64,000 nt of DNA from Callorhinchus milii (taxonomy: Eukaryota), in contig NW_024704742.1 in assembly GCF_018977255.1 (NCBI RefSeq), positions 30,072,001 through 30,136,000 on the forward strand, written 5' to 3'. Both the position numbers and the translations under genes were made by a program. Below, in pieces: positions 10,620 to 32,300 of this stretch (positions are counted from its first letter, which is position 1; the number at the start of each line of letters is the position of its first letter). The notes beneath the pieces were generated by a model. That model had not been told where the DNA came from and did no database searches. It worked only from the letters and a program-made list of their open reading frames with translations.

Positions 10620-11315
10620 TCATCCTGAGATTGTGGAGATCTCGTAGTCACTTGCCGAGATGATCGGTTTTCCCATCATTCTGATATTCTTAGCATTTGT
10701 AATTACAGCCATCATTACAGAAGGTTTCTCAAAGTGTCTGACCAGTGCTGTCTCTGTTAGAACGGAAGCCAAACACTGCTCAAAGGTGATAGCCCAGGCT
10801 TTGTCAATGCTACCACTCTTTGGAAGAGGGGTCTCATGGTTATTGCACACCAGCACTGTGTCCTCTGTGATATCCTCACACTGTAATTTATCATCCTCAC
10901 TAGATTCAGCACTCAGCACTGAGTATGAGGACATTGAAGTATCATCTTTAGTCTCATCATCTGAAATCAGCATCACTGAAGCTACTCCATTGTCTTTTGG
11001 TGAACTGTCATCCAATTTAATATCATGCATCTCACTGCAAGCCTTCTTTCCACCATCCACTTCACTTAGGATGGGACAGAAGGAATCACCCTGTCCACAA
11101 TGTAATGACTCATTCTCCTTTTTCTGGTACATTTTCCTTTTAATCTCATGACTGCTTCCTGGTTCTTGGGATGATTGACAGATGAACTGTTTTCCCACTT
11201 CCCCAATCTCCAGCAGTAAACTAGTTACAGCTGCAGTCGCATGATACAGTTCTTGTTCATTTGCATCTTCACTGAACATGTTGTACAGTGTCCGACATAG
11301 TTCAATGAACTGTTC
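10620..11315 (-). CDS. TBC1D9: TBC1D9 terminal coding exon 21
   Basis: [17 protein letters not shown]...WAITFEQ...[10 protein letters not shown]; gcacag| acceptor; ORF 10620..11345. Confidence 0.95.
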   Translation of the reverse strand, partial: EQFIELCRTLYNMFSEDANEQELYHATAAVTSLLLEIGEVGKQFICQSSQEPGSSHEIKRKMYQKKENESLHCGQGDSFCPILSEVDGGKKACSEMHDIKLDDSSPKDNGVASVMLISDDETKDDTSMSSYSVLSAESSEDDKLQCEDITEDTVLVCNNHETPLPKSGSIDKAWAITFEQCLASVLTETALVRHFEKPSVMMAVITNAKNIRMMGKPIISASDYEISTISG

Positions 11316-14300
11316 CTGTGCGGGACAAAGAAACATACAATACAATCAGTATCCAGAAATAGAAAAACTGTCAGTTTTCTGTTTTGTTAGAACAAAAAGA
11401 TGCACATACATAGCATCTTTCATATGACAAACATCTCAATACGCTTAACAAATATGATTAAGAACCAAGAAGGAAGCAAGAATAAAGATGTTAGGCAAGG
11501 ATGGGAGAATTGGATGATGCACGATGTAAATCAGTGAGCCTATTGCAAGAGAGAATACATGCTGCAGAGTTTGGGATGATTTTGAGATTGTGGAAGGTGG
11601 AGCTAGGGAGCGTGGCAAGGCACTGGCGAAGTCTATCCTCAAGATGACAAACACACAAAAAGGATTTTGAGTAAAGGTGTTAAAGAGGACAATGTTCTAG
11701 AGGTGGAAGAACACAATTTTAGCAATGGACTGGATATGAACATGTAACACTAAAAGTAGAGTAAAATTCTGAGTACTTGATTCAGTTTCGGCAGGTCTTT
11801 GATATTTTGTAACTTGGTCTCCCTTTCTTGTGCCCACATCCTGATGTAATGCCGATAATCATGCGAGTTTGGCCTCTTCTCTGCTGAAAGACAGAGGTAA
11901 GTATACAAATAGGCATTCGAGTTCTGCACAACAGTATTTCATGCTCTACAGAAACTGGAGCAATTAAAAACCACTCCCACTATGCATTTGGGACAACACA
12001 ATTCACCATTTAAACGTTCCAATACAATGTATCATGTTAGAATTTATTTTTAAAAAGTATATAAATGGGTTATTTTTAACACTTTTAAAAAAAATTTGCT
12101 CCTGTAGTTTAAAAGGTTAAATAACATCTTACCTTTTTCGTTTCTGAGATTTACAGTGACAAAGCCATCTTCTGTTTCACCTTTAGACTTTGATTCCATT
12201 TCTGTAACTGAGGAAAAATTAATTGGCCTTAAGTTACCACACTCATTCTACCAATTCAGCTGCAATACATTTTTCCATTTAGCTATGTTGAAGCTAGTTT
12301 TCTTACAATTAACCACCAAAGGCAATCATGTCCTCAAACACGGTGCTTTAAATGATAAATTCTATGTAACAAAGTATAGAAATTATAACTTTAAAAACAC
12401 ATTTGTAATTCCTGGGCAAAATTAATAACTCTCGCCACTCAAGAAATTTGTGTTATCTGCACCATACCGATGTAGTCAATATTAATCTTGCAACCAGTTG
12501 CTTCAAATAAAAATCTGGAAGCTAGGGCACCATTAACAGTTGCAAATAAGTACATTTGTCTTCACAAGAAATATTACTCCAAGTTGTAAGAAAGCACGAC
12601 TGTCCAGTCAAGAATTAATATAAAATATTGATCCAAAAGACTAACTCAGGCCTTTTTTTAATATAAAAAAGTGCACGCATATGAAGTCTCAGTTATAATA
12701 ATCCTTGCATTTGATATAGCGTTTTTCATGTCTTCGAGATATCTCAAAGCGTTTCGCAGAATATACTGTAAAGTGACTTGACTGTATATTTGTGGATGAA
12801 ATGTGGCAGCCAATTGCGCACAGCAGTGTCCCACAAACAATCGTGGATTGAGTGACCAAATTATTATTGTTTTATTTTCTTGAGGGATTATTAGCAGGCG
12901 TGTGGAGTAAAGAAATTTGCCCAGGGTTTCACCCTACCAGGAATCAAACCCAGGTCTCTCGTTTGCGAGGCGAGTGCTCTAACCACTGAGCTACAGGACT
13001 CCAAGTTGACAACATCCCCTGCCAAATCTGTTTTCATCTATTTTAGTTAGTTCAAATTCAATCAGTTCCACTAAACTATTGGACCTTTGTAAATAGCATA
13101 TTTGAGTATTTTACCAGACATTCAAGTCAACATGCATATCCAACAAAATGACAGGAATTACAAGTTGTACTGATCTCTTAATACAGTAGGACATTGCAAC
13201 TCAAGTGTGCTTGTCCACTCATCCAAACCAGACCAAGATATGGAAATCAGATTTTTTTTGAATTTTTGATTGATAATTTTAAAATCAGTAACCCAATCAC
13301 AATGCGTCTACTATCAAACCACCTCAAGTTCACAACTGTTCTCAGTGCAAATGATAAAAAAAAAGTTTAAATTATTTACATACAATACTGCAGAAAATAA
13401 GACATTGGAGGGAGTTGCAAGGCCTATAAATGAAAGTTGAACTTCAATCAAGATTATCAGTTAGTACCTTCACTAACTGCTGTTGAACCCATTAACAAAG
13501 ACATTTATACAGCACCCTTCATGCAGGGTAGCATCGGGGCGCTTAATAGTGGCCTGATACCAAGCCCGGGGGTGTGGGGAGAGAGAGGAAAGAATTTACC
13601 ATTCTGAAAAAGGGGAAGGAGGAGCAAGGAGGAGGGATTGAGGGAGAGAGTTCCAAAGTTTCAGCATGTAATGGCTTAAAGCACAGCTGCCAATGGTGGA
13701 GCAAAGGGGACAAGGGACAAGAAGTAGGCTGGAGCCAGCCGAGCAGAGGCAGTGGGTGGTGGAGTGGGGAGTAACCAGGTTGGAGAGGTAAGGAGGAGCC
13801 AGGGCATGAAGGGATTTGTATAAGTTAATTATAATTAATTGGATTACAGCCTTGTAACTTCTGCCCACATCTTTTATACAAACCAAGTCATATTGAACAC
13901 CATAAAACCTACCGTGAACAGTTTCTGGTGTCATATCTTCAAAGAAGTATTGGGTAGCTTCAAATGCTGAGTCAGGGTCTCCATGGTCAGGAAAAACTGG
14001 CTCTGGGAACAGTAATACAGTAAACTCCTGATAACTCGTCACTCCAAGGGAAAACAACTCAGTGACAAGTTAGGCATATGCATAAATACATGAATAAATG
14101 CAGCCAGGATACTGACAAGTTAAGCCAGGGTCAAGTTATTAGGAGTTTACTGTATATGAAAAAAAACTAAAAGTTGCATGCTTTTGTTAAAGAGCTTTAA
14201 CCAGAACCTTCTGGAACAACAAGTGTTGCTTGTAACAACCGAGAATGAAATATTTATTTTCCAAGTCTGAATCGCTCATTAACTCAGTAGTGATGAATTT

Positions 14301-17300
14301 GAATTTATATAAGGTCTATAATAGTATTTCTGGGCTCTGAATAAGCAATTATACATTAAGTTTCATAGATTTCTGTATAGAGGAACTCTCGTTTCTGGTA
14401 GAAAGCTAACCAACATGAATTAATAAAGCGATTGTAACTTTTAATAGTCATTTGTTTTTAAATCCATCTGTAGAAAGCACATGACAGTTGTCACCAAGAT
14501 AATTGGACATTCTGGAATGAAGTTTAATGTGGTTCCAATTATTGCATGGATATAATGCTTCACATTTATTTCTGTGAGTAAAGCAACTTTAGACCCAACA
14601 GTATAACAATGTGGAGCAGGAAGCCTGAGTTATTCCAACCACTTCGCATCACTGCAAATCATGGCCAAAGAAGCCAGCACCTGATTTTGGTGCTCAAAGC
14701 AGAATGTCAAAATGGTACATTGTTCTGAATTAAAGAAATAGCCATGCACATAGCTCAATAAAAGCATTAAAAAAGTGCACTGAAAAACTTGAGTTTTGAC
14801 TAGCGAACAGGGGAGTAAGTGTACACTCACTGAAGCAGTTCATAAAAGTCCTCCAGATAATAATATAAACCCTACATTTGATACAGCGCCTTCTCACACC
14901 TTGATATTGCACTTCAAAGAATACTGTAAAGTGAATTGAGTGAATTTTGTGGGCCAAATGTGGCAGCCAGCAGTGTCCCACAAGAAATAGGCTCCTGCAT
15001 AGTTTATACTGCAATCCCAAATAAGCTTTTTCATTTCTGGCAGCAAGTCACTGCCACGTGCACTGCGATTAAGCACCAAAAGCACAGTATAAAGTGCACA
15101 AATAGCGATGCCAGATGAGTACCAATTACTTTTCCCTCCCAATTAATACCACTTCATATAGCACAGTTTTTTTTTAAAAAAAGGCACATTTAAGTAAAGC
15201 AATTGAATATTTCCTTATGTTACCTTTGTGGTAGAATGGCCAACAAGCATCAAGCAAAACAGTCAATTTCCACTCAATGTGAAAGCAAATTCAATAGGAA
15301 TTGTTGAAAATATCAAAAGGCAAGTAATAAGCCATAAAATTGTCTTCATAAATATTTGGAAATCCATCGTGTAGGAAGCATTGCATTGTTCTCCAAACTC
15401 AGCTGACATCAGCTGTAGAATCTATCAGTATGAATCTTCATGGGAAACAGCAGGTTTTCTTGGACATGTTAGTACTTCCTGAATACAAATTTAGTTCTGG
15501 AGTTTCAAATACAATGTGTAAATAAATGGAACCAACCATCAGTTTTACTCTATGTTAAACAGATTTTCTTACCAGGAAGTACGTGCACTTTATACAGCAG
15601 TTTCAGCTTTTCCACAAGATCTCCATGACACATTGTACCTATAAAAACATAAACCTAATTAATAGGTAAATTTAAAAAAGGTTCAACTATTAAAGTACAG
15701 TTGAGAAAGGTCAAACTACTTGCAGCATATCTGTTCAAAAATCTTATGATTTCAGGATGTCAGAACCCACCATTTCAAGTCTCCCTTTCTTATGAAACAC
15801 ATGCTACAATGTCTGGTTACAACAACGAGATTAAAAAGCACTTAAATGAGGTAACCATCGTAAAAGCTACATAACAAGTTTTCTGCAGAGGAATCATGGT
15901 TATGTCACATTGTCTTGGGACACTTTGTCTATGAAGTTATCAAAAGTTAGAAACAAGTTGGTACATTTGCTTCAAGGCAATTTTGGTTGGAGTTGACGTC
16001 TTGCAAGTTGGTGTGACGTTCAATTATTTTCTTGCAAAAAATCCAATTTATGCTTCAAAAGCACATTTTCCTGTAGCAAAACTATTAGCGTCATCACTTT
16101 CAGGAGTGATTTTTAACCCCCAATTCAATGGTGCAGTACACCATTCGTACGTTCAAATAGTTTCTTCATTCTATTTATTTTTTGTGTGTGTAAAATCCGA
16201 ACATGACCTTTTCTTGCTCTCCCCCCCCCACCCATTTTTCTTCATAAATGAGTACATAACGCCCTTCATGCGGGTAGTGTCTGAGTGCTTAATAACAACA
16301 AACATTTGTATAGTGTCTTTCACTTTGGGGGGATGTCCCAAGGCGCTTGATAGTCAGAGATTTGAACCCGAGCAGGGCTTGAACCCGAGCAGGGCTTGGG
16401 TGGAGGCAGGGGTAGTTGGGTGGTCAAAGGGGTGGTTAAAGAGGACATAGCAGTGTGATTTGGCACCAACAGCAGTGGGGTTTCACACAGAACTTTTACA
16501 TCTTACACCAACCACTAAAACTTCTGTTTAGAGATTAAAACATTAAATGTACCCAAATCACAAATGAATACCCCTAGCGAATGTAAACAATAATGTTCCT
16601 TCCATTTAATGCCTCTCAAAGTGCTTCACAAGATTGACTGCAAAGTGCAGTAATTGTGTATTTTGTAGGCTAAGAGAAAATGTAATCATTTCTACTTACT
16701 TAATCCTGTAACAAATTCTTTGAAGTTGATGAGAGAGTCTCCGTTCTCATCGAGTAGTCGAAATAAGCGGCCAGCTAATACATCCGAATGGGCACCACAC
16801 GACCAGGGAAAAAGAAGTCCAAACAATTCCTTGAACTGTTCAAAATCAATGCGGTACTGTTCAAGATAAGGCAGACTAGGATCATGCCTTTCAGTAGCAT
16901 TACTGTTTCCACCCCAATAGCAACTGGTGAGATGCTCTGCCTGAAGGTGGTGAAATGAAAAGGATCAACANTTTTTTACAAAGTGAATTTCAGACTGACT
17001 AAACAAATGGAATCAATGCTTCATATGTAGACACACAATATTTCTATGTGGGTAACAGATTTGTTTGTCATCTGTTATACAATTGATCCAATATTCTTTT
17101 TGGATTTGCATAAAAGTCAGTTTTCAAACCCTTTGTTTTTGGAACTTGCTCCCAGTTGCAGCTGAGAGAAAAAGATGGAAAGAAAAGGTTTCCTTTTAAT
17201 TTCCTAATCAAATCCCTGTCATCCACCCTGTAACAAGAGGCAATCATCAACAATACAATGGAGGATTGGCTTTGCCTAGCTCAATAACTACCTGATTTGA

Positions 17301-20300
17301 CTAAGATTATACACCACCCAAGGTTAACAGCTTTATGGCCTCCCTATTTAACACTGACCAATTAGTGCAGAATTCTGGGCAGATTTGTACTATGGTATTG
17401 TGGCCTTAATTCTCCTGAGTATCAGACTGAACCAGGATAGTTAACAGATGTCCTAGAGAAAAACCTTAATTTCCATTTGTGTGGGATGGATCAATATAAA
17501 TCCTGAATGCTAAATACATTAATATTGCAAAAAGCAAAAATTGCAATTAGCATTGAATACAGCTTGAAAAGATTACAAATTAGAGTTCCAGTCACACAAA
17601 ATAGTTTCTTACTTTAAAAAGGACATAAAGTTCTTCCAGCTCATCTATGGTGAATGCAGTGTCTGTCACAATAGCTCGAACCTGAACAAAAGAGAAAAGG
17701 ATTCACATTAAAATATAAAGGTATTTATTTCTAATAATGACATCAGTTGATGTGAGCAAAACTCAATCAACTTTCAGAACCTTAACATAGGCTGTCTCTT
17801 TTTCATTTTGGATAGTCTTCAGACAGGATTGAACAATACTGGTAGACCCAGTGTGCAAACACATCAGCAAGTCCATAATGTCCACTAATATTCACCAATA
17901 ATTGCTTTACAGCATTTGGAGTCTAAAATAATTCAAAATATTTTGCCCTCTCTGAATAGGTGTGAGGGAGAAGGCTGAAGGGGGGAGAAAATGGGGGAAA
18001 AAGGGATACTTACAATATGCAATATCACAACTGTTTTTTGCCAGACACCCTCAACAAACTACAAGCTCAAGGTCATTAATTGAGAAAATCCATTCAGTTG
18101 AATTAAAATCAACCACATGCCAATTATGTATTGCATGAAATGCAGAGTTTGAAAAGTATGGCTGCTGTATACTTAATCGAATCACAGATTAATCTAGCTT
18201 TATAGCTCACGATTCCAGGAAGCTGGATTTTAAACCACCAGGGCAATTAATCATTCCTATTAAGGAAGATTTTTTTAAAGATGATGTAATCTCTGAAGAG
18301 AAAGGGGAAGCTCAGCTGTCTGCATGAACAGCTTTATAATATAAATTTGTCTGGTTTAAAAAAAAATACTTGTTGTACAAACAAAATAATGGAAATGTTC
18401 AAATGAAAATCCCTCAGATCTTTAGGAATACAAACTACATAGTATAATGCTTTTTCTTTTCCCCCCCCAAAATTGAAACTAAATGCTTATTCCTTCATAG
18501 ACATCTGGTAAATAATTAATTTTAAAATTACAAGCCACAAGTTGAATTATACGCTGTCACAAAAAAAGTTGGCTTCTATTTAAGTGACAAAGTTTTGCTA
18601 TTTGTAACTTTAGAAGTTATCTAGATATTATCAAATAAAATCTTAAATATTATAAAGGGAGATATCGCTACTCTGAGGACAGTTTCTTGGTTGCTCCTGA
18701 TAACCACATTCTTTGAAAAATCGTTGTTGTAGACAACCTGTTGACACTTAATGTCAATAATCAAGAAATAATTTAACTGATGCAGAATATTTTCAATAAA
18801 TGCACTCACCACATTGCGTTTTGTGGTATCTTCGAGAGTCTGAATCACTCTTAGTCGCTGTTTAAAACGCATCTGTTCAATCACATCGGCTCTGATGGTA
18901 CCAAATTTCTGAGAAAATTAAACATCAGGCAGGTCAGTCCAAAACAAATTATATAATGAAACAAAATTGCTCCCAGTTTCCAAAATAAATGGTAGAAGAC
19001 AAATAAGTTTAGAAACTAAGTTTAAGGTAGGAAGTTAGAATTAAGGTACAATTGCCAGCTATCTGATGAAGCTAATGATTTAAGAAAACAATAAGACCCA
19101 AAACTTTTGCATGAGCACATGATAGTTAATTATCAAAATGCTTTTGCTCTCACATTAAGTGAGGGGACATGCCAAAAGATGCCAACTGTGATCTCAGTCG
19201 TAGCCATATGGGATTACAGAGCATCTGTTGACACTCACGACAATTACCTTCATTGAGCTGACAGTCTAAAACATACTCCAATAGGTTCCATGTTGGTTTG
19301 TGATCACGCCAAATAATGCTTCACAAAAGGAGGTGACTAACAGGTTTAAGGGATGCTTTATTTTCACTAAGGATTGCAAGCAGGAATACAACAAGAACAG
19401 ATTTCGATCTCATTTAAAAGAGTTCAATTCTGCAAATGTGTTCAAGATAAAACTTGTCAAATTGTAAATGCTGCATTAAAGTGCAGCCTGCTTGTTACAC
19501 AAAGTGAAATGCTTTTGGTAATCAGGAGCAAGCAAGAAACTGTGCTAAGAGTAGTGATATCTCTTTATAATATTTAAGATTTTATTTGATAATATCTGGA
19601 TACCTTCCAAAGTGAAAGTAAAATGCTGTATAACATTATAGAACAGTTTGTTCAAGAGAATGGTATAAAAAATAAAATATAGTGGGACCTCATTACAATG
19701 CAGGTTTGTTTGGGATGTGGATTCTGACATTTACCTTACCCCAAAAATCTAAAATACAAATCAAATCCATGGGTGATTCAACCTTTTATCGGCGCTCGAG
19801 AAGCCAAAATGGTTGATTTCCATCCAGGTCAAAGTCGCACATACATCACTTCCTACATGCTCACATACAGGAAGTTGCATCAACCGTGACATAATACCCC
19901 AGAATTGGCGATTTTGGCTTCCTGTGCGCTGGCTGGCATTTTGAAGTGTTGATACAATGACTACCATTTGGTGTGCTGAACAATTGCACCTGGTTGTATC
20001 CCTTATTAAATTTTTCGACCCCATCTCCTAACTGAATGCCAACAAAGACAAAGGCTCTACTTATTTGGCTCCCATCAGCACCTTCTCACCTCAGGCACTA
20101 AACACATTAACCTTCACAGATGTTCACTCCACCTCATGGAGCCAGTGAGGAACCTAGGTGTCTTGTTGACATTCTACACCCGCTCTCTGTAACTCAATCC
20201 CTTTGCCTCATCCCTCCCGCCTCCCTTTAAAACCCACCTTAAAATCCATCTATGACTGCGCCTTCGGTCATCATTAACCCCTGCTACTGACCCTCACTTC

Positions 20301-23300
20301 CACCCCACCTGAACTCGGGTGTACAGTCAACTGTGTAAAGTCATTTGACCTGTCCTCCTAATGTGAAAGGTGCTATAAAAATGAAAATTGTTACAATGGG
20401 GTTCTAATGTATTAAGTTTGATACAACATTAGTCGGAGTACAGGTAAAGCCAGAAGGTAGTTTTAAAAAATCTTAGGCTTCAAAAACACAAGAAATACCA
20501 AGCTAAAAAATAAATCTACAGTAATGTACTTGCATAGCTGTAATTCTCTGCACAAACACTGTGAAACCTTTCAAAACAACCCTCTTGCTTTGACATTTAA
20601 GATGGATGCTAATATACTGCATTATTTCACACAAACATCACTTGTTTCATGCTCACAGAAAAAGCCTGCATTTTGAAATAAAATGTCATTTAAGGCTAAG
20701 GCTCTGGAAAATTGATAACAATAAGTAAAGCACGTGACTAAGCCTGCAGTTAGATCAAGCTGTGTGATAACCGGCACAATGCAATTTTCCTTTCTGTTAA
20801 AATGAAAAGGTACTTTGTTCAGCAACAGAAAATGTTTTCAATATTCCAGTGGCGTTACTGTACTGTAATCTGTATAAATCACACCAGAGTAAAATGTAGT
20901 CCATTTAAAATATTTTTAAACTGTTATTTTCCATGAATTTAAAAAAGAAACTGATGAAATGTCAAGCACACACCAAACAACGTGCCATTTATGCCCCAGG
21001 AGCCGAGTTATTTATAGCTTGCAATGCCGATGATCTCATCGTATGCATTGAACTGCAGAGGAGGCTATGAGCTTCTGCAAAGTCAAATTTTAAAAACTGC
21101 AATGCCTGATAGTTTGCTTATTTTTAAACCGCAATAAGTTTATCAAAAATCAATTACAATAAAACATTTATATAGCATCTTTCATATTGAGAGGACATCC
21201 CAAGTCAATTTAATCAATAATTTTAAATTGTAAGATTATATTTGTGATGTTTAATTTTTTTAAGGCTTTTAATTAATCTTTATATATGTTTAGAATGTAA
21301 CTTACCCATAAACTTTTAATAAGGTTTATTTGATTTAGTGACGAGCGTAGCGGGGTTAAAAGTAGCTTTGTTGGACCGGTTGAGGTCAGCTTCTGATTAA
21401 ATGGCTACAGCCTCAACACCTGCCTGTCTCAAGGCTAAAAAACAAGCAGGCTGTGGAAGGCTGCCGAGAAGTTGTCCATATTTTGCTCTCCCTGCAAAGT
21501 AGCCTGCGAAGGGTGTGGGCTATCTCTGTGATAAGGGGAGGCGGAGTTAGAAACACAAAAGATATAACTTTGAAATAGTTGGAGTTGTGTAGAGGGTCAA
21601 CGCACTTCCCAGTGGAATCGATAGGTTCTACTGTATCTATGGTCTCATTTTTAAGAGTAGTGAGGTCCGTAAGGAGGGCTTACTCCAGTCGGAGTGTGGT
21701 GTTATCGCAGGTAATATACATTTCAATTGTTACGCTGGATAAACCTGTATGCTGATGTAATAATATAATAGCAACGCTAATTCAGAGACTGTTGTTGTTT
21801 GAGTGTGAAGAAGACATTTTCTTTGAATCTTTGTGTCAACTCATATCGAGTTGACACAACTCCTGCAAACCTTACACCAATTTGATATTGGCATTTGATT
21901 CATGCATTTTCTTCCCCGTATTATCTAGGCACCTCTTTAGCATTACAACATCAGAACATAAAATGAAGAATACTTTCTAAAACTGAGAATATCCTTTACT
22001 AAAATTAATTTTGAATCAGTTGTACTCACATCATAGGAGGTTTTGATTATTTTGAAAATATCAACCTCAGGGTATGGATCTCCGTCATCACTGAGAAGAG
22101 AATGTAGATGAGGGATCGGTGGTAATGTGCTGTCCTTGTTTGTCACACTGTCCAAATATCTGGAGAACAAACATAGTTCATGTGCAAGTCTTCATCTAAT
22201 TTTAACATTTCTCTTGCATTTTAGTTGAAATATAAAATTTAAATACATAAATGCAAGAATTACTATCCTGCTTGGTGCTCCTGTACATCCTGAAGCACTT
22301 TACCCAATATGAAAGGTATCATATAAATAGTTGCATCAACATTGGAGAAAAGGGCTTCTATTTTCATAAGAATTGACTACTTCAGATTAAGGGATAAGAA
22401 GCAATAACTGACATCTGACTCATCTCAGTTTTCTGCAGCTGCAACCGTATAAATTGCAGCACAAAATGGACTAATTCTGCAAGCTTCCAAGAATGATTTG
22501 GTATTATTTGCCTATAGCATTATGGACAGACATCTATAGATTTGCCTGTACAAGCACCATAGATGGCTTACACTATACAAATTAACATTTATATAATAAT
22601 AATCCTTGTATTTGATATAGCGCCTTTCACATTAGGAACTTATCCCAAGACAGTCCAGGGTTCACATCCAAGCTGGGATGGGGGTCTGTGAAAAGATGGC
22701 CAGAAATATGGTCAATTCTGAGGCAGGCATTGAAGGAGGTGAGGGAAGGGGCGAGGATGGAATTCCAGAGAGTGGGGGCAGATATGTTGAAAGTGACCAC
22801 CAATGTTGGAGGAGGGGATGTGAAGCAGGTTAATGCTCACTGAGCGGAGGGAGCAGTCAGGTTGGTACGGTTTGAGGAGGTCACAGAGGTAGGGTGGGGC
22901 AAGACCATGGAGGATTTAAAGTTTAGGATGAGAATCTTGAACTCAATCCACTGGAGGATGGGGAGCCAGCCATGGGGGTGATAGGCTTAATGAGCCTAGT
23001 GCAGGAAAGGACATGAATTGCAGAGTAATGGATAGTCTGCAGCTTGTGAAAGGAAGAGGCAAGTAGAGTAGTCAAAATCTACCTTGCATAAGTAGTAACC
23101 TTGGTTTAGTCAAACTTAGTAAAACATACTTATTTGCAAGTTAACACATGTCATACAAATGTAATTTGTTGTTGTAATAATTTTAGATCTCTTTGGTGCA
23201 TGCAGTAAATTTACAAGAAGTAAAAATTACAATGAACTTACTTTCCAAGTATAGTCATGGCTTCTCCATCATCCTTACAATACAAAAGCTTGTGAATGTT

Positions 23301-26300
23301 AGCATCCAGTACAGCAAGAGCAAGTTGAAAGATCACTTTGATTCCCTCGAAAAAGAAACAGTCCACAACAACTACAGCACTTTCAAAAGGCATTACACTG
23401 AGGAAGATAGTGAGGAACCAGGAGAGCGAGATCGTGGAGATGACACCCAAATCTTGCATACAGTCATAGAGCTGAGGTACATAATCCCGCGTAAGCTCCT
23501 CAAACACACCTTGATCTACCAATGCTCCTAGAAGAAAAACAAGATAAATCAGCATTGAACCTTTGAAATAAAGTTGTTGCAAGCCAAAATATTTAACTTG
23601 GAAGCAACAAAAGACTAAAACTTAAACAATTCTGCACATCTTTCCTGAATGCTCACTTCAATTGCTACATACATATGTGAATACTTTTAAAGAGAATCCA
23701 AACCAAATAATAGTTAAAGATACTGGATAAAAACAAAGCATTAATAACCAGTGCATGCATTTCCAGGCATCTCTAGATTTGATTCACAATAGAAATTGAG
23801 CTGGGTTATCTGCAAGTATACCAGCAGACAGCAATAAAGAATATACATTCAACAAGGCCTTAATCCAAAATTCAGACACACCAGACTAATTGATTCATAT
23901 TTATCAGGAAAGAATATTTAGTTGCATTAAAGACAGGATATTATGGTTGCAGAAGAGCTACATGTCTGTTTCCTCCTATTCATAACTTTCCAGATCAATT
24001 TCAGCAGCAGTACATTTTGTCACTAACATCAGACAGCTCTCTTGTCTGATATCATTCAGCATTACACTGTAATATCAGTTCTGTCAAAATAGGCTCGAAA
24101 TTTGGGCTGCAAGGATTATTAAATAATAATCCTCAATTTAATTAAATTATTATTTAATTATTAATAAATAATCCTTGCATTTGATATAGCATATTATCGC
24201 GTCTTTGAGACATCTCAAAGAGCTACAGAATATACTGTAAAGTGAATTGACTATTTTATGGGCAAAAAAATTATAATTCATAAATCAAGAGTCAGAGGCA
24301 GATTGACTAAGGACAGAAGGAAGCAAAGTTAGAGCTGACAGTAGAATTGAGCAGGATGGAACAGAAGATGAGTGGAACACATTAGAGACCAGTAGACCTT
24401 GTAGACAGGCCAATTGAAACTAAATATGGTGCGAACAAATTGTCAAAACTCTTCCCATGGGAGTTAATTAACAGTGGATTTCTCCTCAGCACTCTTCCCA
24501 TCCTGAAACAATAGCCCATAATTTGACATACTCCAATTTGAACAACTGACGACAGCGGGCTATTATGCACAAAAGTATCAACATAGATGCAAGAGACCAG
24601 AATTTAGAAAGGAAGAATGATGGTTACAGAATTTCATTGTACATACAGATGTCATAAGAATGCAAAAAGAATGTTAGTTTGCAGAGTGGCATCGTCAGTA
24701 TGATTTAACTAAACGCTCTGCTTAATGCCCCGGTAGAGATGACAATGCACCTTTAATTCATATATCATTTCACATTAGTCAACATTAAAGATGCATTACT
24801 GCTAAGCTTTAATGGCTGCACTTTCAGTAACTAAATACTACTTACCAACCACTCTAGTGTTGTAGTAATCTGGCAGCATCCGTTCACAGAGTGCAACCAG
24901 CAACCAGAATGCTTCTTCCTCTTTTGCATATAGTAGCAGTACTGAGGTGACAATGTTCATTGCCTGCAAATTTCCACATATATAAAAAAACTAATATTTA
25001 GCAACTTTCTATCAATGGAAAATCAATACAACTTTGTTTTAACCTAAAAAAAATAAGGTATTCTTTTAACCAATAGTGATGTTATAAAAGCTACTCAATG
25101 TTGACAAGCTAATTGTTTGTGAACTCAAGTTTTAGATTAGTCAAGAATAAAATTACCTTATGCAGTCTATATACAGAAATATAATGAAAGACTAATTTTT
25201 GGGGGGATTGTTGGCCAGAACATGAGGAAAACTCCCTTCTCTTTTCAAATAGTGCTGTGGGATCTTTAACATCTATCTGAATAGGCAGACAAAAGTCAGT
25301 TTAACATCTTATCTGAAGAATGCCACCTCTGGCAATATAGCGCCCCTCCCTCACTGCAATGGAGTGTCAGCCTACACTATACAAGTTCTGGAATCTTAAA
25401 GTGGGGTTTGACTCAGAGATGAGTGCTACCACTGAACCAGGCTGACACTGATCATTGAAATATAAAAGCATTTTGTTGTTCTCGGAATACTTAAACAGCC
25501 CAGCAGATTATTTAAAAAAACACCTCCGAAGATTTTCAGCAGTCACTGCCTCAGACAGTTCGTTTTAGTGTTTCGATTGACAAGCCAGCTTTTAAGCCAG
25601 CTAGCAAAAGTGCAATTAAATCTCAGTGCATTTCAGCTGAAAGTTTTGCAAATGTTCAGCATTTGCCCTCTGAAAACCCAAAGAAATTACATTTGACAGA
25701 TAGCCTGGCTACAAATAGTTAGATATTTTGGAAATGAAAGGTTGAAAATTGTCCAACCAAAATACCACCATATAGAAAATGGCATTCGGGCACTAAACTA
25801 CGTTTTGACACTATGCGTTTAAAGCAGATAAAATAAAACAGATCAATTCCAACCAACCACCAAAACTACAAGTTAAGCAACAGTTAATTCAACATTTCTA
25901 ATGAAATGTGAAGTAAAATCATTACAGTAAGAGAATAAATAATCAGCAAGTCAGGTGTTGACCTTACTGATGTATTAAATGGTTCCCTTAGCCTGACAAT
26001 TGGATTTAAAATCTGTTCATCTAAAGACTTAGGTGAGGAATACATTGAAAACATCTACTTTCAGATTTCATCCAGGTTGTCCATTAAACATTGTCTATAT
26101 GGTTTAGAACACAGCTTTGTCTGCCTTCTGCAATATCAGGCCTAAGAAATTCAAATATCGAGGAATAGATACATAGACTGACTATAGCTTTCATCACAAT
26201 GGAGAAAACTTAGGCTTAACCTAGTGGAAATTTCCAAAGTTACGAAAGTGGTTATCAGGTTGACTAATTAGTCAATCTGATAAAGGGCAAAGTTTGAAGA

Positions 26301-29300
26301 AGTAGAAGACATTGTTTACAAATTCGGAATAACTTCTATCTGAATTTCCCACTCCATGATTTAATAGAAAACGAATTGTCTTTTAGCTGATCTTCCAACG
26401 TCACCTGCATGAACTTCATGGACCAACTACACATATTTAAGCAAACGTATACTGTAATACTTGCAAAATTAAAGTCACTGTTTTTTGATGTTTTTACAAT
26501 TCTAAGCCAGTACATTAAAATCAAATACTGGAACATCAACTGACTTGGCAATATCCTATGTTGGGGTTTCGGAAAGCATATGCAGTGAGGACTCTTCTGA
26601 GAGCACCAATCCCCATCTCATTCTGGAATGCAGGGTGCTCAGGCAGTGAACGGTGCAAGTCCCTCTCGATTTCTTCTGTAGCAAGATTATACTTTCCCAT
26701 TGATTTCTCCACCAACTCAGAGTAGTATCCAGGGTGGGTAGCCATTTCATTTATGGCTCCTGAAATCAGAAATTAGAATGATTCAAGATAAATGTTTCTT
26801 TCCGCAGCTCATAGTGGGGGATTGGGAGATAGGAGTGGAAAGAAAAGAAAATCTTGCAACTTACCTGAAAAACTATTTAAAAAATGCACTATGTCACCAA
26901 ATGTTCACTTACAAAATACAGTCACAACACACTAAATAGAGTATATCCTCTGAAGCGCTTTGAGATGTCCTCCCAGAGTGAAAGGTGCTTTGTTAAATGT
27001 AAGGATTTTTATTATAAGCTTTCAGTGTTTTCCACATTAAACGTGATTAATTTAAATTCAATGTAACTAGCTCATGGCTAAAGCTATCATGCTTTTGGCA
27101 AATGAACACATTCTAAAATCTGAAATTACTGATTTCTATAATCAACCCCACAGAAACAAAACTCCACAGAAACCGTACATACTCAGCAGCGTAGAACAAC
27201 ATTCCTGCATTTTTTGCCAATTTTTCTCCCTTCAAGAGGGGACTACGCTTCCATTCAAAGTCTTATCTAACATCCAAGTCAAAATTCAAAACAATCACCA
27301 ATTGAATCCCAGGCAAGGATACAATTTGAACTCCTGTGCAACTGATTAAGTTCTAATTTAATAAAGAGATGGGTCACACCAAGAATCCTGTTCATGTATA
27401 AAGTTGTGCACAGTTGGTACAGAAGCTACCAGAGCCACTAGATCACATCCTTAACAACAACAAAATTAATGCTTTCACATCGGGAGGATGTCCCAGACTT
27501 GAACAGTCAAGGAGCAGGACCCGATCGTGGAGGGCAGGGTTGGGATGAGGGAGGGCAGAGTGGGTGGCTGAAGGTATGGTCAAAACAGAGGTTCTTGAGT
27601 CATGCCTTGAAGAAAGCAAGAGAGCGAGCAAGGCAAAGGGATTGTGGAATGGAGTTCTAAAGAGTGGGGGCAGATGTTATTAACAATAGCATCTTCACAC
27701 ATGCAAACCACGATTCTCCCCCCCGCCTCCCAGCATTATCCCTGGTCAAGTCCAATGTGGAAGAATGAACACAGGATTAAATGAATTCTCTCAGTACATT
27801 TTTCTAACAAGCTCAAAATTATTATTCAAAAGATTTTTTGTAAAAAAAACACTGAAGTAAAATTAACCTAAATTAGCTAAATTAAAGAGCATTCTGCTCA
27901 ACACAAGTTGAAATGTTGCTTTCTATGTTTGCACACCTGAGAACAGCAGCCAGAGTTCACCCCTCATTCTCTCTGGAATTCCTTTCAGTACAAGCTCCTG
28001 AGTCTTCTCAGTACGATACATGCACACTCCACGGCCATATTCTGCAAAGTGCATTTTCCAGGACTGCTCCTTCATTAATTCCTTAGCCTAATATGGCAAC
28101 AAATACATTAATATACATGCCTCTGGATAGTACAATAGCAAATACAACAGATTTATTAAATTTAAATTAGAAATAAACATCAATAGGCTCACAACTGACA
28201 GCAAATACAAAACAACTGTTTGGAACTTGGGTCGTCTGGATCCAAAATCCTAGGCCCCAGGTTATAAGCAGAGTACGTGTGTGTAAAAGAAAAATTGATT
28301 TTCAGGTGGCCAGGTTATGTCATTTCCTAAGCACTGCGTAAAAGAGGCTCCCTAACATTGCTTCTTTCATGAAAGAGCAATGCCATAATCTGCAGGACTG
28401 ACTTTTGAGCGCTTCCTGCAAATAGCTCACAATATGTGATACCAGTGACATATACTGCACAGGAATTGACATCAGCAGTGATTGGACAACCCAGTCTGAC
28501 AATTTTTAGCATGGAAAGCCAGTTATTCAGCATCAGAAGCTGAGTGTACTGCTCTTCTGTTAGTGTATATCCATGGGAAGTAAGATATGGGAATTATAAT
28601 GGGGTTGTATTTAAACATTTCAACATTCTTTATACAAGTCTTTTTAAAATAATGCTTTCTTTGGTGAGTAGGAGTTACATAATTTAATTACTTAACTGAA
28701 TCTTTAGAACCCTAAGTTTTCTTAGACAGCAGTATAACTTCCCTTCCATCCATTTATTTTAAGTGAGGTTTTAGTGGTTATCCAGTTGTGCTGAAATAGT
28801 TCAGGTAGAAACAGAAATTTTCAGCACTGAACACCTGGTAATATCTTATGTTCGGGTTCATTCAGTCTATTGGTGGTTAGAGTATAGACCTCCAGTCTTA
28901 GTTTTCCACATAACATACTCCTGAGTCATCTGATGCTACAAGATGGAAGCATTAATATTTCCTCATAGGCAACAGAAAAACAAGTCTCATGTGCATCTCC
29001 AGAGTCTGTCAGAAGTCTGGAAGCATGGTACTGGAAGATGCTAAAAGAAATGCAAAACAATAAACTAGGAATTTTAGGTTTTGAGTTTAAGTACAAATTT
29101 CAATTAAAAATACAGATGGTCAGAAATATAGGGATTATCAAAGTTGTTAATTTACCCATAACTAACCACAAGTATCAACTCTAGTGTTAGGGCAAACACG
29201 ACAATGAATAGAAATTCACTTTACAGCTCTAAGCTAGTGACTACAGCACATACCATGGTGCTGTTGCAAATATGGTGGGTTAATAATAAACATGTAGTTA

Positions 29301-32300
29301 TATAAAAACTGTAATAAACACGTACCACTTTGGGATTAAATTCCTCTGGCGACCTACGACGGTACATTGTCATAAGCGTTTGTGTGGCTGTTGGAACACT
29401 GTTCCCATTTTGATTGAACTGGCGCTCTCCATCTGTGTCTGAAGTTGAACTGAGGCTTCTCTGTGGACTGCCTGAAATTATGCTGCTTTGTCTTGAAAAT
29501 ACCTGAAGGACAAACAGTTGACAAGTTGCTTGGAAAATACTTTAATGCTGCCATTGTGCATTAAGCAATAAATGCAAACAGTAAGAAACATTTTAAGTAA
29601 AAGGTGTATTTTAACTACAAAAAGCTGATCTGAAGACTACAAACCTTTACAATGTCAATAAAAGAGCACATATCCATGTGTTTTATTAGCGTCATAATTA
29701 TTGCACAATTCTGCAAGAAATTCAATACTTAAAACATAAATATACAATCAATTCACTTTGCAGTATATTCTGAGAAGCACTTTGAGACATCTCAAAGAAA
29801 TGATAAGGTGCTATATCAAATGCAAGGATTATTATTATAACACAGTAGTCTTTCAGATTCATAATGTACTGCACAAATACTGTTAAAAATATTTTGTTAC
29901 ACATACCTCATCGTCACAACTATTGCTTCCAACAATTTCCTTGTCAAAATAATTTTTTGATGTTGTTTGCTGAAGAAAGTCTGAAATTCTTTGCACCAGA
30001 AAGTCCCTGTCCTTAAGATTGGCAAAAAAGAAAGTCATCCTGTTCTTGGTGCTGATGGACAAAGGGCTGGGAAGCACACTGGAACTGTCGGCTTTTTCCA
30101 CTATTGTGACCTGAAACAAATATACAACAGGGTTCTTTCTACATTTTAGATTTCACCCCCAACTCCCCCCAACTACCTTTTATACACTAAAAAGGTATTA
30201 GCCTAGCTCAGGCGATGTATTCTCATCTCTGAGTCAGGAAATTGTGGGTTTGAACCCCATATCGGGACTTCTAAGATTCTGTGAAGCGAATTGAGATGTC
30301 TGAAGACATCATGAGGTGCTATATCAAATGCAAGGATTATTATTATATGAGATCCCAGTCTGGCCTGACACCTTTTAAGGAAATCCCAATTTCATTTTTT
30401 TTGTTTTAAACTTTTCCCCTAATTTTCTTGTTTGACAGAAATAAAGAGATGCTGGAAGAACAGAAATTGTGAATAAAAAGCAACTTAATATAACTAAAGA
30501 ATTTTTGGATATTTATGGATCATTTCACGGAGAACATGAACTAGTTTAAGCGAGAGCAATATCCAGACATGAAATAGTAATTTTTGTGGGGCTACACAGA
30601 GGCACTGATGAATGCTCGGATATTTGTTGACTATATGATTATTATACCTGTGAGTATATATTTATAGCAGAATGCTAACTAGTAATCTATGAATTAAAGT
30701 TCATGCATCTACAGTTGCTTCCAACACACCAAATACATTGTTGGATTTCATACATACCTCTCTTAAAGGAATGATAAGACTGCAAAGGTTTTCCTCCTTA
30801 CTGGTGAAGCAGATATAATTGGTAGAAACAAACATCTGACCCACAACGTGCATCTTACTAAATGGTGTCCAAAGTGTGCAGTCTGTGTGTCCATCCAATC
30901 GTTCATCTTTAGGTAGTCGGAACAACGCCCTGTATCTCTCACTCTTTGCTCTAGCATCAAGATCCCTAGAAAATACATAAAAATAATTTATTGCAGCTCA
31001 CTGAGCATGGTATGCACTATTGTATGGCAGATTCCCAAGCTTCTCTTTACACAAGCTGCAGACCACTCAGAACTCTGCAACTTGTGTTCTCTATCTCATC
31101 AGGCTCTGTAATTCTTCACCACAGCAGATAAAATTCAAGATCCTCATCCTCGCATTCAAATCCCTCCAACATTCCCCCTAATCCTACCTCTGCAACCCAA
31201 ACACTCCAGCTACTTAGTACCCCACTCAATCTGTCCCATCATGGGTAGGCAAACTCAATTCCAGAGTCTCACCCCCTCCCTACCTTCAAGTTTTTGACTG
31301 CATTTTGGTCACACTGTTTTCCCTACTCAAAATCTTCCTAATCTCCACCCATCCCCAGCTTGGGCTCTCAGTCAGCTCCGTGCTTTGAAATGTCTCCAGA
31401 CATGAAAAGCACGTATAAATGTAAATTGGCAATCATAGTGCTGAATGAAATAACTGATAGTTGATGCCCCTTTACCAGTTTGACATCAAGTTTCATACAA
31501 GTACAGTGCAATGAAATGAGTGTGCACAAAGCAGGATGAAAATTCCTTTTAGTTATAAGATGTGACATTACTAACCGTTTTAAAACAGACACTTTTTGGG
31601 GAGATTTCTTCTTCAATTTTGGGAGTGATTTGTCTTCTTCAAAACCTTCATTATCAAGAAGTTGCCTCATGGCAATGTTGGCAAGTTGTTCCATCAATTT
31701 AAATGTATCGCCAATATTAAGGAAGACAGAGAAAATATAGTCACTGCACCTCGTGCTCACTTTGATCATTTCAGGAAAGAGTAGTGTGGTATTCTTTTCT
31801 AGTTGAACAATGTCTGCCCATCGGATCACTAACTTGGCTAGAAAACAGGAAAATCTTTTTCAGATATTAATAAACAGACATGTCAAACATTTTTCATATT
31901 TAATTTTTATTTCAAAGCACTCCACAGCAGAGTCACTGTGTGTTTTGTGTAGGCAACTAATTTGCATACAGCAATGTCCCACAAACCGCCATCAAAAGAA
32001 TGTCCAATCTTTTAATTATTATTAGGAGACTGTTGGCTGAGACACTGTAAGAAACTCCTTTCTCTTTTTCACTAAATCCATGGGATCGTTAAAGTTCAAA
32101 CTGAACTGCCAGACACTTCAATATTATATTGTACAGTATTACAAACTCATTAGTCAGGTCAAACTTTCTCAGTCTGTTGGCTGAATTTATTGTTGAGTTA
32201 CCATTGTATTAACCTTAATGCCATTCATATCAAAATGATGACTTAAGTTTAGGAAAGAGTGCAAAGGAATACTCTACCTTCTTTACCCAACAAAAACGAA

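What the first reader, a model, noticed from the sequence alone, without database searches (positions are those of the whole stretch)
18607..19613. ~100-nt inverted repeat brackets frame-preserving exon 14 of TBC1D9: candidate RNA-structure switch (exon loop-out, circRNA or A-to-I editing)
Seen: 18607-18706 is the reverse complement of 19516-19613 with 8 mismatches and one 2-nt gap (~90%), including a 35-bp perfect core (agatattatcaaataaaatcttaaatattataaag). The arms lie 103 nt past the exon 14 donor and 607 nt before its acceptor. They do not resemble the SINE/LINE families elsewhere in the window. Exon 14 is 99 nt, phase 0-0, so skipping removes 33 aa between the TBC domain and EF-hand without a frameshift. 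Known: flanking intronic complementary sequences promote back-splicing and exon skipping, and long duplexes with A-C mismatches are ADAR substrates; two such mismatches are predicted in the minus-strand pre-mRNA. Inference: a locus-specific duplex may regulate TBC1D9 isoforms.
Basis: partly seen in the sequence, partly recalled or inferred. Interest (0 to 1): 0.8.

Follow-up and report, generated by a model that had tools for sequence, protein, structure and literature searches.

The report
Local inverted repeat flanking TBC1D9 exon
A 100-base stretch of one intron of the elephant-shark TBC1D9 gene was copied backwards into the neighbouring intron, so that a small exon now sits between two matching arms, but the RNA data available show the exon spliced in normally, so this is most likely a harmless mutational scar.

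Summary
Arms 18607-18706 and 19516-19613 are 90% reverse-complementary, share a 35-nt perfect core, and bracket a 99-nt, phase 0-0 exon (18810-18908, minus strand) of TBC1D9. The pair is unique in the 991-Mb genome and is not a transposon family. Predicted RNA pairing is strong (-119.7 kcal/mol) and persists in a 4.5-kb pre-mRNA fold.

New here: only arm B is flanked by a 13-nt direct repeat (12/13; about 1 in 1000 in a window-wide null). Arm B therefore looks like a templated, inverted insertion copied from arm A about 0.8 kb away, probably by a replication or repair template switch.

The regulatory reading found no support. Spliced contigs in 4 of 4 RNA runs (2 studies) join exon 13-14-15. 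No skip or back-splice joint is among the 15 of 68 joints shown. No A-to-G-type change occurs in arm B in the 2 runs with intronic contigs there. All 11 protein models of this species, and 119 of 120 vertebrate TBC1D9 models, contain the exon.

Contigs cannot exclude rare isoforms, and no related genome could be examined.

Verdict: a real, locus-specific intronic complementary pair, most likely neutral and able at most to give low-level by-products.

The parts
18607..18706 (.). Arm A of the inverted repeat, in the intron downstream of exon 14 (gene on the minus strand), 103 nt past the donor. It is the probable source copy, because it has no flanking direct repeat.
   Evidence: 90/100 to arm B, reverse complement. 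(flank score 4 against a null mean of 4.3). (1783 of 2000 shuffles reach the observed score).
19516..19613 (.). Arm B of the inverted repeat, in the intron upstream of exon 14, 607 nt before the acceptor. It is the probable derived copy (a templated inverted insertion).
   Evidence: Intronic RNA contigs run through it and both its borders in X1 (18879-21164) and X2 (18879-20094).
18623..18657 (.). 35-nt perfect core of arm A. Its partner lies at 19563-19597.
   Evidence: pattern with up to 3 mismatches gives exactly 2 places in the 991-Mb genome, both with 0 mismatches; reversed-pattern control gives 0.
19501..19513 (+). Left copy of the 13-nt direct repeat flanking arm B (target-site-duplication-like), 2 nt before the arm.
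   Evidence: 12 of 13 identical to 19615-19627. A score of 11 or more occurs in 9 of 9095 null placements in the window (AT-matched: 4 of 5075).
19615..19627 (+). Right copy of the 13-nt direct repeat flanking arm B, 1 nt after the arm.
18810..18908 (-). TBC1D9 exon 14: 99 nt, phase 0-0, 33 aa, residues 762-794 of P0001.
   Evidence: Joints 18908>22030 and 17679>18808 (cut +2) in 4 of 4 runs.
22030..22159 (-). Exon 13 (130 nt).
   Evidence: joints 18908>22030 and 22159>23242; splice sites.
17613..17681 (-). Exon 15 (69 nt, phase 0-0).
   Evidence: joints 16939>17612 (cut +1) and 17679>18808 (cut +2).
18909..22029 (-). Intron 13 (3121 nt), which contains arm B.
   Evidence: skips 3121, CT..AC on the + strand, that is GT..AG on the minus strand.
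17682..18809 (-). Intron 14 (1128 nt), which contains arm A.
   Evidence: skips 1128, CT..AC with cut +2.

Best explanation
The two arms are a lineage-specific local inverted duplication inside TBC1D9 of a chimaera (the protein is 100% identical to a Callorhinchus milii record). About 100 nt of intron 14 (arm A) was copied in inverted orientation into intron 13 (arm B), about 0.8 kb away. The likeliest route is a replication or repair template switch (FoSTeS/MMBIR-like, or a templated insertion at a break) that re-copied 13 nt on its return, leaving the direct repeat around arm B. The arms have since diverged by about 8%. In the pre-mRNA the arms can form a duplex of about 100 bp that loops out exon 14 with its two splice sites. 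The exon has consensus-like splice sites and is spliced in constitutively in the RNA sampled. The repeat is therefore most likely a neutral mutational scar. At most it yields low-level by-products (some ADAR editing, rare back-splicing or skipping) and is not a regulatory switch. Shown: existence, uniqueness, the flanking repeat at arm B only, predicted pairing, and dominant inclusion of the exon. Inferred: the direction and mechanism of the duplication, its neutrality, and its age.
For: The repeat is real: 90/100 identity, E 5e-34. It is unique. Searching the own genome with arm A gives 2 matches, both of them the arms. The 1651-nt region 18300-19950 at E<=10 gives only itself, the arms, and two unrelated matches of 44-45 nt. 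The 35-nt core with up to 3 mismatches gives 2 places and a control of 0. Homology stops at the arm borders: for the outer flanks 1524 of 2000 shuffles reach the observed score, and for the inner flanks 148 of 2000. The 13-nt direct repeat (12/13) sits 2 nt and 1 nt from the ends of arm B; a score of 11 or more occurs in 9 of 9095 null placements, or 4 of 5075 when AT-matched. Arm A has none (score 4 against a null mean of 4.3). The 1007-bp unit as a whole has none either (score 5, reached by 2988 of 8953 null placements). The source lying within 1 kb in inverted orientation fits short-range template switching as described in PMC7954356 and PMC2621351 (search listing and abstracts only). For RNA, joints 12-13, 13-14, 14-15 and 15-16 are present in 4 of 4 runs. 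Single contigs cross exons 12 to 16 in X5 (1082 nt) and X6 (2791 nt). All 11 of 11 protein models of the species and 119 of 120 vertebrate TBC1D9 models contain the exon. No Rfam family matches 18300-19950 at E<=1.
Against: The polarity (A as source, B as copy) rests on one 13-nt flanking repeat in AT-rich sequence; two arms were tested, so p is about 0.002. The register is ambiguous, because the outer end of the arm and the start of the repeat share 5 nt. No outgroup intron could be examined, so neither an empty site nor conservation of pairing could be checked. The duplex is predicted to be very stable (-119.7 kcal/mol; 91 of 98 arm B positions pair with arm A in the MFE of the 4547-nt pre-mRNA segment). 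It has no competing repeat of 30 nt or more in 16900-23300, which contains both flanking introns. By the plasmid work of Liang and Wilusz (PMC4201285, passages read), inverted repeats of 30-40 nt can suffice for circularization, so some back-splicing is plausible. Contigs drop rare variants, and only 15 of 68 joints were displayed. Arm A itself has no independent read support in the four runs laid.
Confidence: 0.6

Rival explanations
1. One reading: the duplex is a functional RNA-structure switch that regulates TBC1D9 isoforms by looping out exon 14 (giving a protein 33 aa shorter), or that produces a functional circRNA or editing site.
For: The exon is 99 nt and phase 0-0. The arms lie close to the splice sites, and the duplex is strong and without competitors. 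Short inverted repeats can drive circularization (PMC4201285).
Against: Contigs in 4 of 4 RNA runs from 2 studies include the exon, and no skip or back-splice joint is among the 15 of 68 joints shown. None of the 11 species models lacks the exon. Only 1 of 120 vertebrate models lacks it, P0093, a hamster (Cricetulus griseus) model. 5 of the 8 arm differences are transversions that break pairs, and only 1 is a wobble on the transcribed strand. The plus-strand RNA would pair better (-128.9 against -119.7 kcal/mol), so there is no sign of selection for pairing on the sense strand. Recalled, not from a call: single-exon circles usually come from long exons, and 99 nt is very short.
Confidence: 0.07
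2. The origin is neutral, but the locus yields measurable low-level by-products: a 99-nt exon 14 circle, a skipped mRNA, or promiscuous ADAR editing of the intronic duplex, in tissues or at levels that contigs do not show.
For: The predicted duplex is about 100 bp with a 35-bp perfect core. PMC4201285 passages: 30-40-nt repeats are sufficient in plasmids. Unspliced intronic contigs at depth 14-23 show that the pre-mRNA carrying arm B is sampled.
Against: No such joint is shown. There are 0 T>C differences in arm B (19516-19613) in X1 and X2; the only difference is 19518 G>T in X1, which looks like an allele. [quoted passage not shown]
Confidence: 0.2
3. The arms are terminal inverted repeats of a DNA transposon or MITE, or two independent copies of a low-copy repeat family inserted in opposite orientations.
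For: Two 100-nt arms in inverted orientation 0.8 kb apart resemble TIRs. Arm B has a flanking duplication.
Against: The genome holds only two copies by three searches. A conserved vertebrate exon lies between the arms. There is no duplication around the 1007-bp unit or around arm A. Recalled, not from a call: 13 nt is longer than the target-site duplications of cut-and-paste superfamilies. The genome search is stated to be a lower bound and may miss old, diverged copies.
Confidence: 0.05
4. Arm B is an RNA-templated (LINE-machinery) retro-insertion of a fragment of the gene's own intronic RNA. On the + strand, arm B has the sense of the minus-strand pre-mRNA at arm A.
For: The 13-nt flanking duplication is in the range of LINE-type target-site duplications (range recalled; repeat). 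The orientation is consistent.
Against: There is no poly(A) or other tail at the arm's end. Landing within 1 kb of the source in a 991-Mb genome would be an extreme coincidence for retro-insertion, but is expected for a template switch.
Confidence: 0.08
5. Assembly artefact: a fold-back error created one of the arms.
For: Arm A has no cover in the four runs laid.
Against: Arm B and both its junctions are crossed by independent contigs in X1 and X2. The arms differ at 8 positions plus an indel, which is unlike a fold-back chimera.
Confidence: 0.03

Closest known systems
Intronic complementary sequences that flank circularizing exons (inverted Alu pairs at ZKSCAN1, HIPK3 and EPHB4; the Sry inverted repeats; the Drosophila laccase2 repeats)
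   Same: Reverse-complementary sequences lie in the two introns beside an exon and close to the splice sites. They are longer than the 30-40 nt found sufficient in plasmids (PMC4201285). There is no competing pair within 16900-23300, which contains both introns.
   Different: The arms are not TE-derived; they are a unique local duplication. The enclosed exon is only 99 nt. No back-splice joint was seen in the data available.
Short-range template-switch mutations, FoSTeS/MMBIR, and templated inverted insertions at breaks
   Same: A nearby sequence is copied in inverted orientation, a short duplication flanks the inserted copy, and 5 nt are shared between the arm's end and the flanking repeat. 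The concepts come from PMC7954356, PMC2621351 and PMC11724301 (listing and abstracts only).
   Different: The copied tract (about 100 nt) and the distance (about 0.8 kb) are larger than the very short events (mostly 5-34 bp) in the abstract of PMC11724301, and far smaller than the CNV-scale MMBIR events. The ancestral state was not observed.
ADAR substrates formed by intronic inverted repeats (for example inverted Alus)
   Same: A long, nearly perfect intramolecular dsRNA is predicted in a pre-mRNA, with two A-C mismatches.
   Different: No A-to-G-type difference occurs in arm B in the two runs with intronic contigs. The pair is single-copy and not a SINE.
MITEs and non-autonomous DNA transposons with long terminal inverted repeats
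   Same: Two inverted arms of about 100 nt lie less than 1 kb apart.
   Different: There is no target-site duplication around the unit and no other copies in the genome. A conserved host exon lies inside.

Membership tests
circRNA-producing exon with flanking intronic complementary sequences | Reverse-complementary sequences of at least about 30-40 nt in both flanking introns | tested here: met
   100 nt at 90% identity with a 35-nt perfect core. The threshold is from PMC4201285.
circRNA-producing exon with flanking intronic complementary sequences | A back-splice junction (donor 18810 joined to acceptor 18908) in RNA | tested here: inconclusive
   No such 'goes back' joint is among the 15 of 68 joints shown for 4 runs. 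These are contigs and library types are not on record, so rare or non-polyadenylated circles could be missed.
Cassette exon skipped by RNA looping | An exon 13-15 junction (17681 joined to 22030) in RNA, or annotated isoforms lacking the exon | tested here: not met
   The junction is absent from the joints shown, and contigs in 4 of 4 runs include the exon. 0 of 11 species models lack it and 1 of 120 vertebrate models lacks it. Rare skipping is not excluded.
Cassette exon skipped by RNA looping | Exon length divisible by 3 and complementary boxes on both sides | tested here: met
   99 nt, phase 0-0; arms in both introns.
ADAR-edited inverted-repeat dsRNA | Clustered A-to-G differences between RNA and DNA within the arms | tested here: not met
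   0 T>C on the + strand within 19516-19613 in X1 and X2; the only difference is 19518 G>T in X1. Contigs reveal only majority bases, and arm A has no cover.
ADAR-edited inverted-repeat dsRNA | Long intramolecular duplex in the transcribed strand | tested here: met
   Prediction only: -119.7 kcal/mol. The arms pair in the MFE and the centroid of the 1041-nt fold and in the MFE of the 4547-nt fold.
MITE / DNA transposon with TIRs | Target-site duplication flanking the whole element | tested here: not met
   Score 5, reached by 2988 of 8953 null placements.
MITE / DNA transposon with TIRs | Multiple copies in the genome | tested here: not met
   Only the two arms were found in 991 Mb. The tool states that its counts are lower bounds.
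Template-switch / templated inverted insertion | Donor sequence nearby in inverted orientation, with homology ending sharply | tested here: met
   The arms are 809 nt apart, and the flanks beyond them are not homologous.
Template-switch / templated inverted insertion | Short duplication or microhomology at the junctions of the inserted copy only | tested here: met
   A 13-nt repeat (12/13) lies at arm B (9 of 9095 null placements); there is none at arm A.
Template-switch / templated inverted insertion | An ancestral empty site in an outgroup | not testable with these tools
   No related eukaryotic genome is held ('no relatives here'). One search found no look-alike windows.
LINE-mediated retro-insertion | A 3' poly(A) or LINE-type tail next to the target-site duplication | tested here: not met
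   Arm B ends 1 nt before the right repeat copy, with no A-run belonging to the insert.

The most novel reading that the evidence does not exclude
A single template-switch mutation created, from nothing and without any transposon, a back-splicing-competent and ADAR-competent architecture around a conserved, frame-preserving TBC1D9 exon in the chimaera lineage. In tissues or stages not sampled here, it yields a lineage-specific 99-nt circRNA or a TBC1D9 isoform 33 aa shorter. This would be a datable example of the birth of an RNA-structure-dependent isoform.
Probability: 0.1. Interest if true: 0.55.

Novelty: new member of a known kind. Interest (0 to 1): 0.25.

Why it matters
Complementary sequences that flank exons are the known substrate for circRNA formation, exon looping and ADAR editing, but nearly all studied cases derive from transposons. 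This pair is unique in its genome and its mode of origin can still be read: a templated inverted insertion with a flanking duplication. If RNA products were shown, it would be a clean natural experiment on whether one structural mutation is enough to change splicing. As it stands, the exon is spliced in normally, so the locus is mainly a well-preserved example of a small inverted duplication in a slowly evolving genome.

Tried and rejected
RNA runs. One search reports 'no RNA holder listed' on record. The runs are only guessed to be RNA, although the spliced contigs show that X1, X2, X5 and X6 contain mRNA.

Part without cover. Bin 18428-18668, which holds most of arm A, has depth 0 in all four runs. 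This says nothing either way.

Contig depths. Depths of the exon 14 joints (X1 650 and 593.5; X2 175 and 206.1) against their neighbours (X1 778.3 and 766; X2 216.4 and 251.3) were considered as a hint of partial skipping. This was rejected, because depth is one figure per contig.

Homology beyond the arms. None was found (1524 of 2000 shuffles reach the observed score for the outer flanks, 148 of 2000 for the inner flanks).

Target-site duplication. None around the whole 1007-bp unit. The left flank of arm A against the left flank of arm B scores 7, which 3.3% of the null reaches; this was not interpreted.

Rfam. 0 matches at E<=1 in 18300-19950.

Earlier findings of this scan. Nothing by place, by relatives or by words.

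Literature. 'TBC1D9' plus 'circRNA' returned 15 papers. The 10 listed (titles and abstract starts only) do not describe a circle from this exon. 'Elephant shark' plus 'circRNA' returned 5 papers, none relevant by listing. 'Templated sequence insertion' plus 'target site duplication' returned 4 papers, none used.

Step left out.

Age. The estimate of 22-86 Myr from K = 0.086 uses assumed substitution rates of 2e-9 to 0.5e-9 per site per year. These rates come from no call and are only illustrative.
Full report
**1. The observation**

The window sequence and two independent repeat searches confirm the inverted repeat. The repeat finder reports it as two gapless pieces: 18607-18663 with 19557-19613 (57 nt, 91%) and 18659-18706 with 19516-19563 (48 nt, 90%). 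blastn joins them into one alignment of 90 of 100 identities, 8 mismatches and one 2-nt gap, with E 5e-34 against the 64-kb window. All other window hits of either arm are 10-27 nt and have E above 0.05, so the arms resemble nothing else in the window.

The 35-nt core is exact on both arms.

On the transcribed (minus) strand the 8 differences give one U-G wobble, two A-C mismatches and five other mismatches. Three are transitions and five are transversions.

**2. The gene and the exon**

The ORF of the last coding exon (10623-11345, minus) is 100% identical to a UniRef TBC1D9 entry of Callorhinchus milii (P0001). The next hits are TBC1D9 of sharks and rays at 71-77% identity.

tblastn of the 1258-aa model P0121 places the exons on the minus strand from 43416 down to 10623.

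Spliced contigs fix the local structure:

| Exon | Coordinates (minus strand) | Length |
|---|---|---|
| 12 | 23242-23528 | 287 nt |
| 13 | 22030-22159 | 130 nt |
| 14 | 18810-18908 | 99 nt |
| 15 | 17613-17681 | 69 nt |
| 16 | 16697-16940 | 244 nt |

- The four introns between these exons (12-13, 13-14, 14-15, 15-16) are all GT-AG.
- Exon 14 is phase 0-0 and encodes residues 762-794 of P0001.
- It lies between the Pfam RabGAP-TBC match (501-701, or to 713 with the second model) and the EF-hand (875-899).
This does not change the frame argument.
- Arm A lies 103 nt past the donor, and arm B lies 607 nt before the acceptor.

**3. Copy number**

The window's own genome (991.5 Mb, 1762 contigs) was searched three ways.

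- Arm A as a 100-nt query gave 2 matches, both of them the arms.
- The whole region 18300-19950 at E<=10 gave itself, the two arms, a 44-nt match (19707-19750) on another contig, and a 45-nt, 87% match of part of the exon on a third contig, presumably a paralogue.
- The 35-nt core with up to 3 mismatches gave 2 places, and the reversed control gave 0.

The tool warns that its counts are lower bounds. However, copies of the same age as these arms (about 90% identity) should have been found.

The pair is therefore locus-specific and is not two members of a repeat family. No Rfam family matches the region.

**4. How it arose**

Homology ends sharply at the arm borders.

A transposon reading fails. 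There are no further copies. There is no duplication around the 1007-bp unit (score 5, reached by 2988 of 8953 null placements). An exon present in 119 of 120 vertebrate TBC1D9 models lies inside.

The flanks of the individual arms differ from each other.

- Arm B is bracketed by a 13-nt direct repeat, 19501-19513 and 19615-19627, 12 of 13 identical. The copies sit 2 nt and 1 nt from the arm.
- In an empirical null (20-nt flanks around 98-nt segments placed every 7 nt along the window), a score of 11 or more occurred in 9 of 9095 placements. With AT-matched flanks it occurred in 4 of 5075. In local shuffles, 30 of 2000 reached the score.
- Arm A has no such repeat: score 4 against a null mean of 4.3, and 1783 of 2000 shuffles reach it.

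I therefore read arm B as a roughly 100-nt insertion with a target-site-like duplication, and arm A as its template.

The template lies only about 0.8 kb away and is inverted. A replication or repair template switch that returned 13 nt behind its point of departure explains the proximity, the orientation and the flanking repeat together. The concepts come from PMC7954356, PMC2621351 and PMC11724301, of which I saw only the search listing and abstracts.

A LINE-type retro-insertion of intronic RNA would also give such a duplication. But there is no tail, and landing beside its own source would be a great coincidence.

The polarity and the mechanism are inferences. The register of the flanking repeat is ambiguous, because the outer end of the arm and the start of the repeat share 5 nt. 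No outgroup could be examined.

The arms differ at 8 of 98 aligned sites (K = 0.086). With assumed rates of 0.5-2e-9 per site per year, this would be roughly 20-90 Myr. These rates come from no call.

**5. What the RNA could do**

- The minus-strand arms are predicted to form a duplex of -119.7 kcal/mol. The plus-strand equivalent is -128.9 kcal/mol.
- The arms pair with each other in both the MFE and the centroid of a 1041-nt fold.
- 91 of 98 arm B positions pair with arm A in the MFE of the 4547-nt segment from exon 13 to exon 15.
- No other direct or inverted repeat of 30 nt or more exists in 16900-23300.

By the plasmid experiments of Liang and Wilusz (PMC4201285, passages read), inverted repeats of 30-40 nt next to splice sites can suffice for circularization. 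The same paper reports that not all repeats work, that stronger hairpins can inhibit, and that G-U wobbles matter. The architecture is therefore competent in principle.

The better pairing on the non-transcribed sense, and the excess of pair-breaking transversions, give no hint of selection for the RNA helix.

**6. What the RNA data show**

One search for runs listed 14 coded runs from 4 studies, none on record as RNA. I laid X1 and X2 (study P1) and X5 and X6 (study P2) on 16500-23700.

- All four runs contain spliced contigs with joints 22159>23242, 18908>22030, 17679>18808 (cut +2) and 16939>17612 (cut +1).
- In X5 and X6, single contigs (1082 nt and 2791 nt) run through exons 12 to 16.
- No joint from 17681 to 22030 (skip) and no 'goes back' joint from 18908 to 18810 (back-splice) is among the 15 joints displayed. 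53 further joints with less support were not shown.
- X1 and X2 also hold unspliced intronic contigs (depth 14.1 and 22.7) that cross arm B and both its borders.
- Within 19516-19613 the only difference is 19518 G>T in X1. There is no T>C, the sign of A-to-I editing on this strand.

Contigs show majority sequence and presence only. Rare skipping, circles or partial editing cannot be excluded.

Annotation agrees with constitutive inclusion. All 11 members of the species' TBC1D9 protein cluster contain exons 12 to 16 in full. Among 120 vertebrate models, only P0093 lacks exon 14, while four models (P0067, P0080, P0081, P0104) lack exon 15.

**7. Verdict**

The repeat is real, highly non-random and unique. 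It is best explained as a local templated inverted insertion. It belongs to the known kind 'intronic complementary sequences flanking an exon' and has an unusual, non-transposon origin that can still be read.

Nothing found here indicates that it regulates TBC1D9. The simplest reading is a neutral scar whose duplex may give low-level by-products.

The decisive tests are orthologous introns of other chimaeras and sharks, raw-read ribo-depleted or RNase R RNA-seq with matched DNA, and a minigene.

Noticed in passing
window 17613-17681 (minus): A 69-nt, phase 0-0 exon (exon 15) lies between exon 14 and the EF-hand exon. It is the exon absent from 4 of 120 vertebrate TBC1D9 protein models (P0067, P0080, P0081, P0104), so it is the annotated cassette in some species, and exon 14 is not.
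   Followed up: partly
window 22525-22765, and 16614-16643: A very high-copy repeat. Summed contig depth reaches 29,000-140,000 in the four RNA runs. There are hundreds of loose ends at 22593 and 22626, and joints link 22593-22626 with 16614-16634. This looks like a short interspersed element present in many transcripts.
   Followed up: no
window 19707-19750: A 44-nt stretch about 100 nt beyond arm B matches another contig of the same genome (C3:75575866-75575908) at 91%. It is a small unrelated repeat fragment.
   Followed up: no
window 18804-18848: Part of exon 14 matches C15:13142767-13142811 of the same genome at 87%. This is probably the equivalent exon of a TBC1D9 paralogue.
   Followed up: no
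window 26770-29319: tblastn of the 1258-aa model found no exon for residues 481-525. One small exon between 29320 and 26769 remains unlocated.
   Followed up: no
window 16971: The single N of the window lies in the intron just upstream of the EF-hand exon.
   Followed up: no
window 19518, and other intronic sites 17161-22511: Contigs of X1 and X2 differ from the window at scattered intronic sites, with changes of all substitution types (for example 19049 C>G in both runs, 19518 G>T in X1 only). These look like ordinary alleles between individuals.
   Followed up: no
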